46,505 nt of DNA from a virus (lineage: Duplodnaviria; Heunggongvirae; Uroviricota; Caudoviricetes), in the IMG/VR virus record IMGVR_UViG_2563366802_000006. One strand, 5' to 3'. This document shows, one piece after another, positions 6,583-22,674 of this stretch. Position 1 is the first letter of the stretch. Every line of letters starts with the position of its first letter. The notes under the pieces were generated by a model that did not search any database, had not been told where the DNA came from, and was given only the letters and a program-made list of their open reading frames with translations. The position numbers were made by a program, and so were the translations under genes.

Positions 6583-6715
6583 TTTTTGGGACTCCTGGCT
6601 GATTAAGTATGTCGATAAGGCGTTTCCATCCGTCACGTAATTTACGGGTGATTCGTTCAAGTAAAGATTCGGAAGGGCAGCCAGCAACAGGCCACCCTGC
6701 AATGGCATATTGCAT
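6551..6715 (-). CDS. cIII: cIII protease inhibitor
   Basis: Found by hand on the minus strand (below the 60-aa ORF-track cutoff): [54 protein letters not shown], 54 aa, matches lambda cIII. Confidence 0.85.
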   Translation of the reverse strand: MQYAIAGWPVAGCPSESLLERITRKLRDGWKRLIDILNQPGVPKNGSNTYGYPD

Positions 6716-6787
6716 GGTGTGCTCCTTATTTATACATAACGAAAAACGCCTCGAGTGAAGCGTTATTGGTATGCGGTAACGCCGCGC

Positions 6788-7165
6788 TCAGGCGGCTTTG
6801 ATAGTCATATCATCTGAATCAAATATTCCTGATGTATCGATATCGGTAATTCTTATTCCTTCGCTACCATCCATTGGAGGCCATCCTTCCTGACCATTTC
6901 CATCATTCCAGTCGAACTCACACACAACACCATATGCATTTAAGTCGCTTGAAATTGCTATAAGCAGAGCATGTTGCGCCAGCATGATTAATACAGCATT
7001 TAATACAGAGCCGTGTTTATTGAGTCGGTATTCAGAGTCTGACCAGAAATTATTAATCTGGTGAAGTTTTTCCTCTGTCATTACGTCATGGTCGATTTCA
7101 ATTTCTATTGATGCTTTCCAGTCGTAATCAATGGTAAGCGTAAACTGACCGCCGTATGTAGCCAT
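6788..7165 (-). CDS. ea10: Ea10-like protein
   Basis: 125-aa ORF in the position lambda ea10 occupies (next leftward of cIII); similar size. Confidence 0.7.
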   Translation of the reverse strand: MATYGGQFTLTIDYDWKASIEIEIDHDVMTEEKLHQINNFWSDSEYRLNKHGSVLNAVLIMLAQHALLIAISSDLNAYGVVCEFDWNDGNGQEGWPPMDGSEGIRITDIDTSGIFDSDDMTIKAA

Positions 7166-7218
7166 CAGACGAGAATTGGTAACTTAGACGCCCATCTGAT
7201 ATAGACGGACATCTAAGT

Positions 7219-7644
7219 ATGGAATTACAGGACTGGCGAAAAGAACCTCGTAAAAACTATTCGAATGAATTCAAACTTCGTATGGTGGAACTGGCATCAC
7301 AACCTGGAGCTTGTGTTGCACAGATTGCACGTGAAAATGGCGTCAATGATAATGTTATTTTCAAATGGCTCAGGCTCTGGCAGAACGAAGGGCGTGTTTC
7401 GCGGCGTCTTCCGGTAACGACCTCTTCTGACACTGGCGTTGAATTATTACCTGTAGAAATAACGCCGGATGAGCAGAAAGAACCTGTGGCGGCCATTGCG
7501 CCGTCTTTATCCACTTCCACTCAGACCAGAGTCAGTGCCAGTTCCTGCAAGGTGGAATTCCGTCACGGTAACATGACGCTGGAAAATCCATCGCCAGAGC
7601 TGCTCACAGTGTTGATCCGTGAACTGACCGGGAGGGGAAGATGA
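7219..7644 (+). CDS. IS66-family accessory protein TnpA (orf1)
   Basis: 141-aa ORF with HTH-like N-terminus; stop overlaps the next ORF. Confidence 0.8.
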   Translation: MELQDWRKEPRKNYSNEFKLRMVELASQPGACVAQIARENGVNDNVIFKWLRLWQNEGRVSRRLPVTTSSDTGVELLPVEITPDEQKEPVAAIAPSLSTSTQTRVSASSCKVEFRHGNMTLENPSPELLTVLIRELTGRGR

Positions 7645-7991
7645 TCTCACTCCCATCAGGTACCCGTATCTGGCTCGTTGCCGGCGTTACCGATATGCGT
7701 AAATCCTTCAACGGACTGGGAGAACAGGTACAACATGTGCTGAATGATAATCCCTTCTCCGGTCACCTGTTTATCTTCCGTGGCCGACGGGGTGACACCG
7801 TCAAAATTCTTTGGGCTGATGCTGATGGTCTGTGCCTGTTCACCAAACGCCTGGAGGAAGGCCAGTTTATCTGGCCTGCGGTACGTGACGGCAAGGTATC
7901 CATTACCCGCTCGCAACTGGCAATGCTCCTCGATAAGCTGGACTGGCGTCAGCCAAAAACATCCAGCCTTAACGCACTGACAATGTTGTAA
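7641..7991 (+). CDS. IS66-family TnpB (orf2)
   Basis: 116-aa ORF MISLPSGTRIWLVAGVTDMRKSFNGL... typical of IS66 orf2. Confidence 0.85.
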   Translation: MISLPSGTRIWLVAGVTDMRKSFNGLGEQVQHVLNDNPFSGHLFIFRGRRGDTVKILWADADGLCLFTKRLEEGQFIWPAVRDGKVSITRSQLAMLLDKLDWRQPKTSSLNALTML

Positions 7992-8021
7992 AAAACTCCT
8001 GACCGCATTATAAAAACGGTC

Positions 8022-9635
8022 ATGAGTCAGAAATACCTCATTCGCATCGCAGAGCTGGAAAGGTTGCTCTCTGAGCAGGCTGAAGCCCTCCGTCAGAAAG
8101 ACCAGCAACTGAGTCTGGTTGAAGAGACGGAAGCCTTCCTGCGCTCTGCACTGACACGTGCCGAAGAAAAGATCGAAGAAGATGAACGGGAAATAGAACA
8201 TCTGCGGGCTCAGATAGAAAAACTGCGCCGGATGCTGTTCGGTACCCGTTCTGAAAAACTGCGTCGTGAAGTTGAACTGGCTGAGGCTCTGCTGAAACAA
8301 CGTGAACAGGACAGCGATCGTTACAGTGGGCGGGAAGACGATCCTCAGGTTCCCCGCCAGTTGCGACAGTCGCGCCATCGTCGTCCGTTACCGGCACACC
8401 TTCCCCGTGAAATACACCGCCTGGAGCCAGAAGAAAGCTGTTGCCCGGAGTGTGGCGGTGAGCTGGATTATCTGGGGGAAGTCAGCGCTGAACAGCTGGA
8501 ACTGGTGAGCAGTGCCCTGAAAGTGATCCGCACAGAACGGGTAAAAAAAGCCTGTACAAAATGTGACTGTATTGTTGAAGCACCGGCGCCGTCCCGCCCG
8601 ATAGAGCGTGGTATCGCGGGCCCCGGATTACTTGCCCGCGTGTTAACGGGAAAATACTGCGAACATCTGCCACTGTATCGTCAGAGTGAAATCTTTGCCC
8701 GCCAGGGTGTCGAACTGAGCCGGGCCTTACTCTCCAACTGGGTTGACGCGTGCTGCCAGTTAATGACACCGGTGAATGATGCCCTGTACCGTTATGTAAT
8801 GAACACCCGCAAGATTCACACTGATGACACACCGGTAAAGGTACTGGCACCGGGTCAGAAAAAGGCGAAAACAGGGCGTATCTGGACGTATGTCCGGGAT
8901 GATCGCAATGTGGGTTCGTCATCTCCTCCAGCGGTCTGGTTCGCGTACTCGCCGAACCGGCAGGGGAAACACCCGGAGCAACACCTCCGCCCCTTCCGGG
9001 GTATCCTGCAGGCGGATGCGTTCACAGGTTACGACAGGTTGTTCAGTGCAGAACGTGAAGGTGGTGCACTGACAGAAGTTGCGTGCTGGGCCCATGCCCG
9101 GCGAAAAATCCACGATGTATACATCAGCAGCAAAAGTGCGACGGCAGAAGAAGCACTGAAGCGAATCAGTGAACTGTACGCCATCGAGGATGAAATACGG
9201 GGATTACCGGAGTCAGAGCGTCTTGCCGTCAGGCAGCAGCGAAGCAAAGTGTTACTGACGTCGCTGCATGAATGGATGGTGGAGAAGAATGGTACGCTGT
9301 CGAAAAAATCCAGACTGGGCGAAGCGTTCAGCTATGTACTGAATCAGTGGGATGCCCTCTGTTATTACAGTGATGACGGTCTGGCGGAGGCGGATAATAA
9401 TGCTGCGGAAAGAGCGCTTCGTGCAGTCTGTCTCGGAAAGAAAAACTTTATGTTCTTTGGCAGCGATCACGGCGGCGAGCGTGGAGCACTGTTGTACGGG
9501 CTGATCGGCACCTGCCGTCTGAACGGTATCGATCCGGAAGCGTATCTGCGCCATATCCTGAGCGTACTGCCGGAATGGCCTTCCAACCGAGTTGATGAAC
9601 TCCTGCCATGGAACGTAGTACTCACCAATAAATAA
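8022..9635 (+). CDS. IS66-family transposase TnpC (orf3)
   Basis: 537-aa ORF with N-terminal coiled coil, zinc-finger CPECGGEL...CTKC and a DDE-type core. Confidence 0.88.
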   Translation: MSQKYLIRIAELERLLSEQAEALRQKDQQLSLVEETEAFLRSALTRAEEKIEEDEREIEHLRAQIEKLRRMLFGTRSEKLRREVELAEALLKQREQDSDRYSGREDDPQVPRQLRQSRHRRPLPAHLPREIHRLEPEESCCPECGGELDYLGEVSAEQLELVSSALKVIRTERVKKACTKCDCIVEAPAPSRPIERGIAGPGLLARVLTGKYCEHLPLYRQSEIFARQGVELSRALLSNWVDACCQLMTPVNDALYRYVMNTRKIHTDDTPVKVLAPGQKKAKTGRIWTYVRDDRNVGSSSPPAVWFAYSPNRQGKHPEQHLRPFRGILQADAFTGYDRLFSAEREGGALTEVACWAHARRKIHDVYISSKSATAEEALKRISELYAIEDEIRGLPESERLAVRQQRSKVLLTSLHEWMVEKNGTLSKKSRLGEAFSYVLNQWDALCYYSDDGLAEADNNAAERALRAVCLGKKNFMFFGSDHGGERGALLYGLIGTCRLNGIDPEAYLRHILSVLPEWPSNRVDELLPWNVVLTNK

Positions 9636-20834: not shown

Positions 20835-20864
20835 TTTTTTTGCAAATCACAAAGTCCATTTAAT

Positions 20865-20891
20865 GAGCCTCGCGATGCGGGGCTTTTTTTA
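20865..20891 (+). terminator. Rho-independent terminator candidate after Rz
   Basis: Hairpin AGCCTCGCGATGCGGGGCT followed by TTTTTTT. Confidence 0.55.
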
Positions 20892-21039
20892 CATCTGAAT
20901 TTCACAGCGCATCTCACGCGCATATTACATCACCCGAGCCTTTCAGAAAGTTGAGCCTGAGAACTGCCGTATATGGTGGCGACCATCTCGGGGCGGCTTT
21001 TCTGTGAGACAGGCTCACTTTCTAAAAGGTAAAGACGCT

Positions 21040-21528
21040 ATGAACCAATTAGAAGAAAAGCTTCAAAGAATGATTTCCTTATACAAGGAAGATAACTGCC
21101 AAAAAGTTCCTGAAAACATCGCAGAGTTAATGGAATTGGCAAGTGAATTTTCTGGCATGCTTAAGTCGTCAGGTGTTCGGTCAGCGTTCTTTGTTGAAAT
21201 GCTGATGCACGGCGGACTTATGGCAACAATGAGACGTGTAATGGAAGACCAGAGAAAAGAACCTCCTCAGGTATACGTTTTGTCATCGAAGAAAACTGGG
21301 CTAACCAAAATTGGGTATTCATCCAACATTCCACAACGCATCAAATCGCTTGGCAACTCTGGACCAGACTGCTTGAAGCTTGAGTGCCTGATCCCTGGTG
21401 GAAGAGAAACTGAAAACATGCTTCATCGCAAATTTGCCGCAAAGAGAAAGCACGGTGAATGGTTCGCCCTGTCCAAGGATGACATTGAGGGATTGAAATC
21501 TGTAGCGATTACTTCTGATGGCTATTAA
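21040..21528 (+). CDS. T5orf172 / GIY-YIG-like domain protein (moron)
   Basis: Start chosen at ATG 21040 (MNQLEEKL...); C-terminal half has the T5orf172-type pattern VYVLSSKKTGLTKIGYSSNIPQRIKSL...HGEWFALS. Confidence 0.6.
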   Translation: MNQLEEKLQRMISLYKEDNCQKVPENIAELMELASEFSGMLKSSGVRSAFFVEMLMHGGLMATMRRVMEDQRKEPPQVYVLSSKKTGLTKIGYSSNIPQRIKSLGNSGPDCLKLECLIPGGRETENMLHRKFAAKRKHGEWFALSKDDIEGLKSVAITSDGY

Positions 21529-22206
21529 TGCTTGTTTAGAGCAATTTTCATAACAACTCTTCATTACAAAGCCCATCTACTGGTGGGCTTGATAATGAAA
21601 CCGTGATTTACATCCCCACAATCCGGGTATGTAAAAGATAGTTCAGGCGAGAACGGATTTAACTAAATCTGTGCGCCACCAGTTAACGGCAGTACCACGA
21701 AACAACCCAAGCCAGTAAGTGGGGAAATAACACCGGCAGCCACTGAAAGATGAACCTCCTGCCTTATGGCAAAAAAGATTCTTTGTGGTGGTGGACTGAT
21801 GGAAAGACATCCTAATTTCAGCCAAACATTGAAGGAGTTGTTATGTCAGCAGAAGGTTTCAATAACCCATCAAAATTCCGGGATGAGTGGGATAGCAGCG
21901 TAAAGAGTAAGTGATGCCATCACAAAAGCCATTCCCTACAGAGTGGCTTTGATAATGGCTTATACCCTACACGGGATAACTTAACTGATATCCCTTTTAA
22001 AGGATAAAGGTATTCAAGCCTGACACATCATGCGCTGTATCGTCGCCGTGTTCCCGTATTAACAGAGACCGTAGCCCGACGGGGAACTCCTTCTGCGCGA
22101 GTGTGCGGGAATAATCAAAAACGATGCACACCGGGGTTACCGGGTACACATATTTCATCATGCCAGCGAGTCCGGTTCTGGCACGGAAGAAACCGGACGT
22201 TATGAT

Positions 22207-22617
22207 TTAGTGCGGAAATATTTGTGTAGTGTTCTGAATGTTCTCAGTAAAGAGTAATGAATTATCAAAGGTATAGTAATACCTTTTGTTTTCGTGGATA
22301 TTTGTAATCCATCTGAAAACCCCTGCTGTAGCAAGATTTTTCCTGTATTCGTAAAATGATAACTCTCCTGATTTGAATCCTTTTAAGGTGGCTTCTATAA
22401 GGCATTTATTTTTTGAAAATCTTACATTTACAACCTTACCCTGTCCTTTTATTAAAACCGTATTATCGTTTTCAAGAACAAGATGAATATTCTCTGTGGC
22501 TAAATAGTAAATGTAATGTGAGACATTGTGACGTTTTAGTTCAGAATAAAACCAGTGATAGTTTAAATTATTTCGCACTTTATCGAATATTTGTTTAAAA
22601 ATGGCAACCTGAGCCAT
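22207..22617 (-). CDS. ybcV: YbcV-like protein (DUF1398), low-GC moron
   Basis: Start at [45 protein letters not shown]...; resembles DLP12 YbcV as I recall it. Confidence 0.7.
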
Positions 22618-22674
22618 TGTAGTACCTTCCATGTGATATGAGGGGGCGTAGTCTGCACGATTATCTAGATTGCT

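What the first reader, a model, noticed from the sequence alone, without database searches (positions are those of the whole stretch)
21529..22206. Roughly 680-bp structured non-coding interval with a duplicated hairpin motif and two possible micro-ORFs
No convincing long ORF. Two similar elements (AAAGCCCATCTACTGGTGGGCTTGATAATG near 21565 and AAAGCCATTCCCTACAGAGTGGCTTTGATAATG near 21925) each form a stem-loop followed by GATAATG. Between them lie an SD-preceded 23-codon ORF (21842-21913, MSAEGFNNPSKFRDEWDSSVKSK) and an overlapping 34-codon frame, and a strong hairpin sits near 22170-22198. This may encode small RNAs or peptides.
Basis: seen in the sequence. Interest (0 to 1): 0.4.

Follow-up and report, generated by a model that had tools for sequence, protein, structure and literature searches.

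The report
Prophage spacer: conserved hairpins, hidden microgene
This "empty" 680-base stretch of an E. coli lambda-like prophage is a patchwork of recombined pieces that holds a real but unannotated 23-amino-acid gene and two copies of a conserved RNA hairpin that usually sits at the ends of accessory genes in many related phages; neither is in the standard family libraries, but both are ordinary kinds of feature.

Summary
Both hairpins, the motif repeat and the SD-preceded 23-codon ORF exist, and there is no long ORF. The interval lies between the lysis cassette and the packaging genes of an E. coli lambdoid prophage and is a recombination mosaic.

Two parts look functional.

1. The 23-codon ORF (21843-21914) belongs to a micro-protein family of 23-30 aa. 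It occurs in phages and prophages of Escherichia, Salmonella, Enterobacter, Proteus, Morganella, Trabulsiella and Atlantibacter. The stop position is conserved, dN/dS is 0.15-0.21, and the start has an SD or is coupled. It was annotated in no record inspected and matches no Pfam, PHROG or NCBIfam family above threshold.

2. The two hairpins are copies of one element: an invariant AUUA/UAAU lower stem, a CA/GA internal loop and a free, covarying upper stem. It is always on the late-operon sense strand and usually starts within 8 nt after a stop codon. It recurs in Proteus, Enterobacter and Trabulsiella prophages. Rfam has no match.

The 34-codon frame is not coding, and the 22170-22198 hairpin is weak. 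The rest is an orphaned DUF2560 leader, a 21-nt rha 3' remnant and the bor/iss-upstream block shared with lambda. Nothing supports an sRNA gene. How the hairpin works (mRNA 3'-end processing or stability) is inferred, not shown.

The parts
21529..21559 (+). 3' flank that travels with the upstream T5orf172/MUG113 (GIY-YIG-like) gene 21004-21528
   Evidence: Identical in phage Chlobot and in viral contigs that carry the same gene. Pfam assignment of the gene.
21560..21599 (+). Hairpin 1, a copy of the conserved ATTACA...GATAAT stem-loop element
   Evidence: -22.2 kcal/mol, z -7.4. Model R1 scores 49.3 bits on the + strand. In relatives the same element abuts about ten different upstream sequences, with the boundary at the base of the stem.
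21605..21672 (+). Optional insert with two small hairpins (21607-21635, 21653-21672)
   Evidence: Present in L002-type loci. Absent in Chlobot and phage L, where a short stretch (GAATTTATTCTGGG or similar) takes its place. Fold z -3.4.
21673..21686 (+). Relic resembling the last codons and stop of an rha gene (GCGCCACCAGTTAA)
   Evidence: Compared with the intact rha ends ...CTCACCAATTAA of L004 and P22.
21687..21811 (+). E1: conserved non-coding block that follows rha in P22-like and lambdoid phages. Function unknown.
   Evidence: At least 120 IMG/VR contigs carry it. The central 100 nt are nearly invariant. P22 has +2 nt, and the A-run is 6 or 7 long, so it is not coding. No Rfam family; the only hit is a 19.8-bit partial match to RF03044.
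21766..21903 (+).
   Evidence: Start is AAG in 6 and GTG in 2 of 108 E1 variants. The A6/A7 length polymorphism shifts the frame. The C-terminal part differs with each cassette. In phage L-type loci the frame carries stops in at least 6 loci.
21817..21914 (+). Micro-ORF cassette: leader, SD AAGGAG (21832-21837) and the 23-codon gene
   Evidence: Occupies the slot where relatives carry Phage_gp49_66, DUF551, a 56-aa ORF or nothing. Found in 129 complete E. coli genomes and annotated in none of the rows shown.
21843..21914 (+). 23-codon gene MSAEGFNNPSKFRDEWDSSVKSK (stop included)
   Evidence: Homologues of 23-30 aa with the same stop position occur in phages and prophages of seven genera. dN/dS is 0.15-0.21, all 20 third positions vary, and within-allele polymorphisms are all synonymous.
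21916..21959 (+). Hairpin 2, second copy of the element, starting 2 nt after the micro-ORF stop
   Evidence: -21.1 kcal/mol, z -5.1. R1 scores 62.1 bits on + against 22.9 on -. It is the cassette-linked allele. The allele found without a cassette shows an A-U / G.U / G-C series at one pair.
21960..22002 (+). Orphaned leader that precedes the DUF2560 (P22 orf80) gene in relatives; contains a small hairpin
   Evidence: In L002, L004 and L130 the same sequence runs into the SD and ATG of DUF2560. Here it is cut at GGATAAA.
22003..22023 (+). Last 21 nt of an rha gene (...FDKGIQA stop): a deletion or fusion scar
   Evidence: Identical to the end of the annotated Rha CDS in L003.
22031..22138 (.). 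Widespread non-coding block that lies upstream of bor/iss in lambda, Stx phages and DLP12; here it has no bor gene
   Evidence: More than 3,500 E. coli genomes match some part of the interval, and most of the partial matches listed cover only this block. Positions in lambda, the Stx phage and BL21. Three 1-nt indels against lambda across D, two of them in this block.
22170..22198 (.). Third hairpin, 7 nt beyond the stop of the DUF1398 gene (22207-22632, - strand)
   Evidence: 8-bp stem, z -2.1 on + and -1.5 on -. Shorter stem in lambda. No U-tract on the - strand.

Best explanation
The interval is the accessory-gene slot between the lysis cassette and the packaging genes of a lambdoid prophage. 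Recombination has assembled it from modules that circulate among P22-like and lambda-like phages.

Shown:
(a) The order of modules is: flank of the T5orf172 gene; hairpin 1; an optional insert; the rha-downstream block E1; a cassette with a 23-codon gene; hairpin 2; an orphaned DUF2560 leader; a 21-nt rha remnant; and the bor/iss-upstream block plus the 3' flank of the DUF1398 gene.
(b) The 23-codon ORF is a protein-coding gene under purifying selection, and it was annotated in no record inspected.
(c) Hairpins 1 and 2 are two copies of one conserved element. Its lower stem and internal loop are invariant and its upper stem covaries. Pairing is selected on the + strand, which is the sense strand of the late operon. 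The element usually starts within 8 nt after the stop codon of an accessory gene.

Inferred:
The hairpins act in the late mRNA as intercistronic 3'-end elements. They could be a processing site (for example for RNase III, as in T7 intercistronic sites or lambda sib), a barrier to 3' exonucleases, or both, setting the stability of the upstream accessory message. As roughly 40-bp islands of identity they also serve as crossover points for homologous exchange of cassettes.
The micro-protein acts as a peptide in its own right, made late in infection. Its function is unknown.
E1 and the right-hand third of the interval have no demonstrated function here.
For: Mosaic structure. Comparisons with L002, L003, L004, phage L, Chlobot, lambda, an Stx phage, P22 and BL21 place each module. 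Four cassette types, or none, sit at the same point after GGAAAGACATC.

Micro-gene.
- tblastn finds full-length 23-aa matches in Escherichia, Salmonella, Proteus, Enterobacter and Providencia phages.
- 318 IMG/VR contigs and 20 loci in GTDB species genomes encode relatives.
- Peptides are 23-30 aa and all stop at the same position, with an SD or a TGATG overlap upstream.
- They are syntenic between the lysis and terminase genes.
- dN/dS is 0.15-0.21. Variable sites by codon position are 13/10/20. All five within-allele polymorphisms are synonymous.

Hairpin element.
- Across 31 variants, 95.4% of cells pair, against 32-49% when the partner is slid.
- The covariance model finds copies that were not in the training set, in Proteus, Enterobacter, Trabulsiella and another Enterobacteriaceae genome, all on the + strand.
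- In that 17-sequence alignment 9 of 16 pairs show compensatory change, 96.7% of cells pair, and the covariation score is 0.574 against 0.268 in shuffles (0 of 500 reach it).
- A sequence-only model scores the same independent copies 14-25 bits lower.
- G.U cells outnumber A.C cells 48 to 3.
- The stop codon of a real upstream ORF ends -1 to 8 nt before the stem in most copies.
- There are two copies in the window and one in the whole P22 genome, all in the same region.

Crossovers at the hairpin. About ten different left flanks meet the base of the stem. One chimeric hairpin has its junction in the loop (L109).
Against: There are no transcript, cleavage or translation data. The RNA-level mechanism is inferred only from the strand asymmetry, position and shape of the element.

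The helix is 16 bp plus a 2x2 internal loop, which is short for a classical RNase III site.

Alignment A5 was fitted to the model, so its pair counts lean towards the structure. The sequences fall into a few clades, so the shuffle control overstates significance.

G.T pairs would also favour one strand of single-stranded DNA, so a DNA-level role is not excluded.

In loci without a cassette, hairpin 2 follows non-coding E1 rather than a stop codon. In this window hairpin 1 begins 31 nt after the stop of the upstream gene.

The micro-protein is too short for family or structure searches, so nothing is known of what it does. In P22-like phages its stop lies 6 nt before the small-terminase ATG, which fits a coupling or leader role.
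Confidence: 0.7

Rival explanations
1. The hairpins matter mainly at the DNA level. They would be recombination linkers or structure-specific sites, working like PeSL cassettes of T4-type phages or like integron attC sites, through which accessory-gene cassettes are captured and exchanged. Any RNA role would be secondary.
For: - Each cassette type carries the hairpin at its 3' end.
- About ten different upstream sequences abut hairpin 1 at the base of its stem.
- One chimeric hairpin has its junction in the loop.
- A half-copy is fused to another terminator at 20847-20868.
- The architecture (conserved outer boxes, internal loop, variable covarying stem) resembles attC.
- PeSL-mediated shuffling is a documented precedent (PMC2839356).
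Against: - The left junction of the cassettes lies at the end of E1, not at a hairpin.
- The boxes are ATTACA/GATAAT; the attC core sequences (recalled from memory, not checked here) do not resemble them.
- No dedicated recombinase gene is a constant neighbour.
- Any conserved island between variable flanks will collect homologous crossovers, so the boundaries need no special mechanism.
- Ordinary homologous recombination does not need a stem, yet the stem is kept by compensatory change.
Confidence: 0.15
2. The hairpins are weak intrinsic terminators or insulators. They would stop transcription that has not been modified by Q, so that accessory genes are not read through in the lysogen, while Q-modified polymerase ignores them.
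For: - Stable stem-loops sit at gene ends inside the late operon.
- Intra-operon terminators of unknown role are described for phage L (PMC8022706).
- The phage L record annotates predicted terminators nearby.
- A canonical terminator occupies a comparable position after Rz in this window.
Against: - No U-tract follows the stem in any of 17 diverged copies; the 3' flank is the invariant GAUAAU.
- The terminator scan lists neither hairpin.
- The DUF551 and 56-aa cassettes place a canonical GC-stem plus T-run terminator immediately before hairpin 2, which would make the hairpin redundant as a terminator.
Confidence: 0.1
3. The interval encodes one or more small regulatory RNAs, for example E1 with hairpin 2 as its 3' end.
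For: - E1 is a 125-nt non-coding block with a nearly invariant centre in at least 120 viral contigs.
- The interval folds better than shuffles.
- Prophage late regions are known to carry sRNAs (PMC4104026; bioRxiv 10.64898/2026.05.13.724894).
Against: - No Rfam family matches in the window or in 20 related loci.
- The prophage sRNA families AgvB, AsxR, STnc100 and Esr41, which have Rfam accessions (cited in bioRxiv 10.64898/2026.05.13.724894), gave no match.
- There is no promoter-like site upstream of E1 or of the hairpins.
- The hairpins lack U-tracts.
- E1 varies too little to test covariation. Its conservation (92-97% identity among the phage hits) may reflect recent spread rather than selection.
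Confidence: 0.08
4. The 23-codon ORF is only a translated leader (uORF) that delivers ribosomes to the next gene, or it is a decaying remnant, and the peptide has no function of its own.
For: In P22-like phages the ORF ends 6 nt before the small-terminase ATG, and its last codons supply that gene's SD-like GAAGGGA. In Trabulsiella its ATG overlaps the rha stop.
Against: - The amino-acid sequence is conserved (dN/dS 0.15-0.21) while all third positions vary.
- The same peptide is kept upstream of unrelated genes (terminase, Gp49, others). In this window no + strand ORF of 60 aa or more follows within 1.3 kb, and only micro-frames lie downstream.
- Length and stop position are fixed across genera.
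Confidence: 0.1

Closest known systems
Intercistronic stem-loops and intra-operon terminators of lambdoid and P22-like late operons (for example the annotated stem-loop after P22 gene 5, and the predicted intra-operon terminators of phage L)
   Same: A stable stem-loop on the sense strand inside the Q-dependent late operon, placed just after a gene. The role of such elements is openly described as unknown in PMC8022706.
   Different: This element is a defined family with invariant ATTACA/GATAAT boxes, an internal loop and a conserved G.U pair. It occurs once or twice per phage, only between the lysis and packaging genes, and has no U-tract.
RNase III processing and retroregulation hairpins (T7 intercistronic R sites; lambda sib). 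Recalled from general knowledge, not tested here.
   Same: Two helical segments separated by an internal loop, located 3' of a coding region in a phage polycistronic mRNA. Sequence is conserved around the internal loop while the distal stem is free to vary.
   Different: Only 16 bp plus a 2x2 loop. There are no cleavage data and no sequence similarity was tested. This is a resemblance in shape and position only.
PeSL (promoter-early stem-loop) cassettes of T4-type phages (PMC2839356)
   Same: Short conserved stem-loop modules flank small non-essential genes in a hyperplastic region, and mosaic junctions fall at them.
   Different: A PeSL combines a strong sigma-70 promoter with an effective terminator. 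Here no promoter is found and no U-tract is present. The phage group and the sequence are also different.
Morons of lambdoid phages (bor of lambda and similar; PMC3594210)
   Same: Extra genes are inserted between conserved late-operon genes, and different phages carry different genes at the same point.
   Different: The micro-ORF cassette has no detectable promoter or terminator of its own, so it is probably expressed as part of the late operon rather than independently.
Pfam DUF2740 (PF10872)
   Same: A weak, repeated match of the peptide core GF(D/N)NPSKFR(D/E)EWD to profile positions 19-32.
   Different: Scores are 13-14 bits against a cut-off of 27, and the profile is 43 residues against 23-30 aa here. 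Membership is not established.

Membership tests
Protein-coding gene (the 23-codon ORF) | Start codon with a ribosome-binding site | tested here: met
   AAGGAG lies 5 nt before the ATG. Homologues have GGAG, GAGG or AAGGG, or a TGATG overlap with the upstream gene.
Protein-coding gene (the 23-codon ORF) | Reading frame and stop position kept in diverged relatives | tested here: met
   22 distinct nucleotide versions from seven genera encode 23-30 aa and all end at the same aligned position.
Protein-coding gene (the 23-codon ORF) | Purifying selection on the amino-acid sequence | tested here: met
   dN/dS is 0.21 for the whole ORF and 0.15 for the core. Variable sites by codon position are 13/10/20.
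Protein-coding gene (the 23-codon ORF) | Evidence of translation | not testable with these tools
   No ribosome-profiling or proteomic data are available here.
Pfam DUF2740 (PF10872) | Score at or above the curated cut-off of 27 bits | tested here: not met
   12.9-14.2 bits.
Any Rfam 15 RNA family | Match at the family's gathering score | tested here: not met
   Nothing in the interval. At E up to 10 the only hits are mir-458 (22 bits, cut-off 59) and Proteo-phage-1 (19.8 bits, cut-off 42). Nothing in 20 related loci.
Conserved structured RNA element (the hairpin family) | Base pairs kept through compensatory changes in independent sequences | tested here: met
   9 of 16 pairs have changes on both sides, 96.7% of cells pair, and slid controls pair at 33-51%. 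The structure adds 14-25 bits over a sequence-only model for copies outside the training set.
Conserved structured RNA element (the hairpin family) | Strand specificity | tested here: met
   G.U cells outnumber A.C cells 48 to 3. Scores are 62.1 bits on + against 22.9 on -. All copies lie in the sense orientation of the late operon.
Intrinsic (Rho-independent) terminator | G+C-rich stem-loop | tested here: met
Intrinsic (Rho-independent) terminator | U-tract immediately 3' of the stem | tested here: not met
   The 3' flank is GAUAAU(G/U/A) in all 17 copies. The terminator scan lists neither hairpin.
Small regulatory RNA gene | Own promoter and own terminator delimiting a short transcript | tested here: not met
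   No promoter-like site lies upstream of E1 or the hairpins on either strand, and there is no U-tract terminator. Consensus scans are weak evidence.
Small regulatory RNA gene | A discrete transcript is detected | not testable with these tools
   No expression data.
RNase III processing site | Two helical segments with an internal loop, about two helical turns in all | tested here: inconclusive
   The lower stem is 5-7 bp, followed by a 2x2 CA/GA loop and an upper stem of 9-10 bp. This is shorter than classical substrates.
RNase III processing site | Cleavage by RNase III | not testable with these tools
   Needs in vitro cleavage, or end mapping in an rnc mutant against wild type.
Integron attC-like cassette site | Imperfect hairpin at the 3' end of each cassette | tested here: met
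Integron attC-like cassette site | attC-type core boxes and a neighbouring integron integrase | tested here: not met
   The boxes are ATTACA/GATAAT. No integrase gene lies next to the slot in any annotated relative.
Integron attC-like cassette site | Both cassette junctions lie inside the hairpin core | tested here: not met
   The left junction is at the end of E1 (GGAAAGACATC), which is not a hairpin.
PeSL-type regulatory cassette | A strong sigma-70 promoter joined to a terminating stem-loop | tested here: not met
   No promoter-like match at or next to the hairpins, and no U-tract.
Moron | Gene(s) present at a point where related phages have other genes or none | tested here: met
   Four cassette types, or none, after the same base.
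Moron | Independent promoter and terminator | tested here: not met
   None for the micro-ORF cassette. The DUF551 and 56-aa cassettes do carry a canonical terminator.

The most novel reading that the evidence does not exclude
The ATTACA...GATAAT hairpin could be the recognition structure of a hairpin-directed cassette-exchange system in temperate phages of Enterobacterales. It would be functionally analogous to integron attC sites: a folded single strand at the 3' end of each small accessory gene, with conserved outer boxes and a free stem. Such a system would explain why four unrelated cassettes sit at one point and why about ten different genes abut the base of the stem.
Probability: 0.05. 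Interest if true: 0.8.

Novelty: new member of a known kind. Interest (0 to 1): 0.45.

Why it matters
Two features of a very well-studied phage group have escaped annotation.

The first is a 23-30 aa protein family conserved from Escherichia to Proteus and Morganella. It sits in the late operon next to the packaging genes. Standard gene callers cannot find it, and it is absent from a 15-billion-protein collection.

The second is a sense-strand RNA hairpin family with invariant boxes and a conserved G.U pair that punctuates accessory genes in the same region.

Both are easy to test by deletion, tagging, end mapping and rnc mutants, using phages such as HK544 and APC_JM3.2 that carry them. The work also gives covariance-model and peptide patterns that could be used to annotate thousands of prophages. 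The hairpin offers a concrete case for asking how conserved intergenic islands channel mosaic exchange in lambdoid phages.

If neither has a phenotype, the interval is simply a well-documented example of recombination scars in the lysis-to-cos region.

Tried and rejected
- Known prophage sRNAs (AgvB, AsxR, STnc100, Esr41 and the Pas RNAs). The Rfam scans gave no match. The Pas paper places those genes upstream of the holin/lysozyme operon, not here.
- Proteo-phage-1 (RF03044). Only the single-stranded tail AACACCGGCAGCC matches and both hairpins of the model are missing (19.8 bits against 42). No relative has a full copy. A search of the paper library for the name found nothing.
- GATAAT as a -10 hexamer. 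No usable -35 lies at 16-18 nt in either copy (my reading of the sequence), and the promoter scan lists nothing there.
- The hairpin region as the C-terminal coding end of a gene (KPIYWWA** / KPFPTEWL**). Rejected because the sequence upstream of the stem base differs completely between loci, and the upstream ORFs end before the stem.
- The annotated ORFs of other records that overlap these modules: P22 orf25, the 38-codon extension of phage L orf118, Emek orf53, and Chlobot CDS0086 and CDS0087. None is conserved in frame. Relatives show stops, lost starts and indels.
- The 54-aa minus-strand ORF 21997-22161. Two of the three 1-nt indels against lambda fall inside it and break its frame.
- The search for homologous proteins could not be used because the query minimum is 40 aa. 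The exact-sequence look-up found none of five family peptides.
- I could not retrieve the 1995 paper on rha, which I half remember as describing an antisense RNA. I do not use that recollection.
- A pattern scan of the public collections for the bare ATTACA-N-GATAAT motif was not run. With 12-13 specified bases, chance matches would swamp it.
Full report
**Setting**

The window is an E. coli lambdoid prophage. It contains the lambda cIII thermoregulator, and near-identical prophages occur in complete E. coli genomes.

RefSeq annotation of an identical copy gives this order: holin, YdfR, lysozyme, Rz-type lysis protein, a 'GIY-YIG nuclease family' gene, then about 680 unannotated bases. After those come a DUF1398 gene and a YlcI/YnfO gene on the other strand, then nohD, the large terminase and the portal gene. 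Pfam assigns the 'GIY-YIG' gene to T5orf172/MUG113.

The finding therefore sits in the late operon, between the lysis and packaging genes. In lambda this region holds bor and lambdap78.

**Checking the observation**

- The motif AAGCC...GGCTT(T)GATAATG occurs exactly twice in 46.5 kb, both times in the interval and on the + strand. No shuffle contained it.
- Both copies fold into two-part stem-loops of -22.2 and -21.1 kcal/mol, with z -7.4 and -5.1.
AAGGAG lies 5 nt upstream of the ATG.
- The 34-codon frame is the internal ATG at 21799 of the ORF 21766-21903.
- The hairpin at 22170-22198 is real but unremarkable, with z -2.1.
- No ORF exceeds 60 aa.
- The interval as a whole folds better than shuffles: z -5.9 from 20 shuffles.

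**The interval is a mosaic**

Only 65 of 5,426 E. coli genomes carry at least 80% of the interval in one place, while about 3,500 carry pieces of it. Reading the pieces in their other contexts gives this map.

1. 21529-21559 travels with the T5orf172 gene.
2. Hairpin 1 (21560-21599) is followed by an optional 70-nt insert with two small hairpins. Chlobot and phage L lack the insert.
3. A relic of an rha stop region comes next, followed by E1 (21687-21811). E1 is a block of about 125 nt that follows rha in P22, phage L, Sf6-type and many E. coli prophages.
4. A cassette carries the SD and the 23-codon ORF (21817-21914).
5. Hairpin 2 (21916-21959) is followed by the leader that runs into the DUF2560 gene (P22 orf80) in relatives. 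Here the leader is cut at GGATAAA.
6. At that cut it is joined to the last 21 nt of an rha gene (22003-22023).
7. The 3' flank of the DUF1398 gene follows. It includes a 108-nt block (22031-22138) that lies upstream of bor/iss in lambda, Stx phages and DLP12. There is no bor gene here. Three 1-nt indels against lambda show that this stretch is non-coding.

Across about 120 viral contigs, the point just after E1 (GGAAAGACATC) carries one of five things: nothing, the micro-ORF cassette, a Phage_gp49_66 gene, a DUF551 gene or a 56-aa ORF. In every case a hairpin-2 allele follows.

**The 23-codon ORF is a gene**

- tblastn with the peptide finds full-length matches of the same length in phages of Escherichia, Salmonella, Enterobacter, Proteus and Providencia.
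- In Proteus phage Brookers the ORF MAVEGSDNPVKFREELDKSIPKK lies between a terminator and a Gp49-family gene.
- In the P22-like phage APC_JM3.2, MATQGFDNPSKFRDEWDKQAEGK lies between DUF2560 and the small terminase gene.
- Degenerate-pattern scans found 318 viral contigs. They also found 20 loci in species-representative genomes: Enterobacter, Proteus, Morganella, Trabulsiella, Atlantibacter and E. coli.
- All versions are 23-30 aa, end at the same aligned residue and have an SD or an overlapping stop-start. All sit between the lysis and terminase genes.
- Over 20 distinct nucleotide versions, all 20 third codon positions vary, against 13 first and 10 second positions. dN/dS is 0.21, or 0.15 for the core. 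The five polymorphisms within the two common alleles are all synonymous.
- No PHROG or NCBIfam family matches. Pfam DUF2740 reaches only 13-14 bits against a cut-off of 27.
- The peptides are absent from the 15-billion-protein collection.
- Where records annotate something at this spot, it is another frame.
- The peptide is kept upstream of unrelated genes. In this window no + strand ORF of 60 aa or more follows within 1.3 kb. I therefore favour a function of the peptide itself over a pure leader role. What it does is unknown.

**The 34- and 45-codon frame is not a gene**

Its first 15 codons lie in E1 and are conserved only as DNA. In relatives the start is AAG or GTG. An A6/A7 run polymorphism shifts the frame. 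The rest of the frame changes with the cassette. In phage-L-type loci, where it was annotated as an N-terminal extension of DUF2560, at least six loci carry stops.

**The two hairpins are one conserved element**

Hairpin 1, the cassette-linked hairpin 2 and the hairpin-2 allele found without a cassette all align to a common pattern:
- a lower stem built on A-U-U-A / U-A-A-U;
- a 2x2 internal loop, CA/GA;
- an upper stem of 9-10 bp whose sequence differs between alleles but stays paired.

On 31 variants, 95.4% of cells pair, against 32-49% when partners are slid, and five pairs change on both sides. One of them shows an A-U / G.U / G-C series, which includes P22.

A covariance model built from these variants finds only the two copies in the window and one in the whole P22 genome. 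It also finds copies that were not used to build it, in Proteus phage Brookers, Proteus genomes, five Enterobacter loci, Trabulsiella and another Enterobacteriaceae genome. All are on the strand of the late operon.

In the resulting 17-sequence alignment, 9 of 16 pairs show compensatory change and 96.7% of cells pair. The covariation score is 0.574 against 0.268 in shuffles. The boxes ATTACA and GATAAT are essentially invariant.

That alignment was fitted to the model, so I added two checks.
- A sequence-only model from the same alignment scores the independent copies 14-25 bits lower, for example 47.6 against 22.4 and 28.4 against 6.5.
- G.U cells outnumber A.C cells 48 to 3, so the pairing is selected on the + strand.

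In most copies the stop codon of a real upstream ORF ends -1 to 8 nt before the stem. These ORFs include Rha, DUF2560, Gp49 and the micro-ORF.

No copy is followed by a U-tract. Two cassette types place a canonical terminator directly in front of the hairpin. The element is therefore not a classical terminator. Rfam has nothing like it.

**How it most likely works**

Shown: the element is a sense-strand structure under selection, usually sited at the 3' end of accessory genes within the late transcript.

Inferred: it is an intercistronic 3'-end element. It could be a processing site, a 3'-exonuclease barrier, or both, tuning the stability of the upstream accessory message. The combination of an invariant lower stem and internal loop with a free upper stem recalls T7 RNase III sites and lambda sib. 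That comparison comes from general knowledge and is not tested here. I put this mechanism at roughly one in three.

The same 40-bp islands clearly serve as crossover points:
- about ten unrelated sequences abut the base of hairpin 1;
- one locus has a chimeric hairpin with its junction in the loop;
- a half-copy fused to another terminator lies just after Rz in this window.

This parallels PeSL-mediated shuffling in T4-type phages (PMC2839356), although no promoter or terminator function is evident here. A dedicated attC-like mechanism is not excluded but lacks support. The left junctions of the cassettes are not at a hairpin, and no recombinase gene is a constant neighbour.

**What is not supported**

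Nothing indicates an sRNA gene. There is no family match and no promoter-like site, and no terminator delimits a short transcript. E1 is highly conserved, but it varies too little for a covariation test and could simply be young.

The right-hand third of the interval (22003-22206) is best read as recombination scars plus the conserved flank of the DUF1398 gene.

**Verdict**

Both real features are new members of known kinds rather than new kinds of system. Interest is moderate.

Noticed in passing
window 20847-20885: Just after the Rz-type gene lies a degenerate half-copy of the hairpin element (ATCACAAAGTCCATTTAATGAG: 5' arm and loop only). It runs straight into a canonical intrinsic terminator (GAGCCTCGCGATGCGGGGCTTTTTTT). 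This looks like a crossover inside the hairpin loop.
   Followed up: partly
window 21706-21741: Weak partial match to Rfam Proteo-phage-1 (RF03044; 19.8 bits, cut-off 42). Only the single-stranded tail AACACCGGCAGCC matches and both hairpins of the model are missing. No relative has a full copy.
   Followed up: partly
window 21004-21528: The gene in the slot where many relatives carry rha is a T5orf172/MUG113 protein (annotated as GIY-YIG family). The same gene occupies this slot in phage Chlobot.
   Followed up: partly
window 7134-8477: An IS66-family element (the tnpA/tnpB/transposase part) lies here on the opposite strand. In the otherwise near-identical prophage of strain 3359 a copy sits just upstream of the holin gene instead.
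   Followed up: no
window 6670-6728 (- strand): Full-length match to the lambda cIII thermoregulator (RF01804, 88.5 bits).
   Followed up: no
window 22178-22206 (+ strand): A promoter-like site (CTGGCA-17-TATGAT, 9 of 12) lies inside the third hairpin, pointing antisense into the DUF1398 gene. The number of such sites in the region equals the chance expectation.
   Followed up: no
L026, L085, L089 and related loci, just upstream of hairpin 1: The gene that often precedes hairpin 1 ends in a variable number of GCAAAA hexamers (...AKAKAKVK stop). This is an in-frame repeat-number polymorphism.
   Followed up: no
L016, inside E1: In this viral contig the E1 sequence breaks off and a 108-aa ORF that looks like an insertion-sequence transposase OrfA follows. 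E1 would then tolerate disruption in at least one prophage. The ORF was not scanned against any family library.
   Followed up: no
L211 and L212: Contigs binned as a Cellvibrionaceae MAG and a Candidatus Nanosynbacter MAG carry the micro-ORF cassette and hairpin 2, with a 100% identical peptide. They are probably mis-binned enterobacterial phage contigs.
   Followed up: no
L196 1501-1569: A recombinant micro-ORF (MSAEGFNNPSKFRDEWDKQTEGK) joins the N-terminal half of this window's allele to a C-terminal half like that of the P22-like allele. The crossover lies inside the 69-nt gene.
   Followed up: no
L231 830-907 (P22 orf25); L005 1647-2003 (phage L orf118): These published annotations start inside or run through the hairpin-2 element and E1. 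Comparison with relatives suggests the stretches are non-coding.
   Followed up: partly
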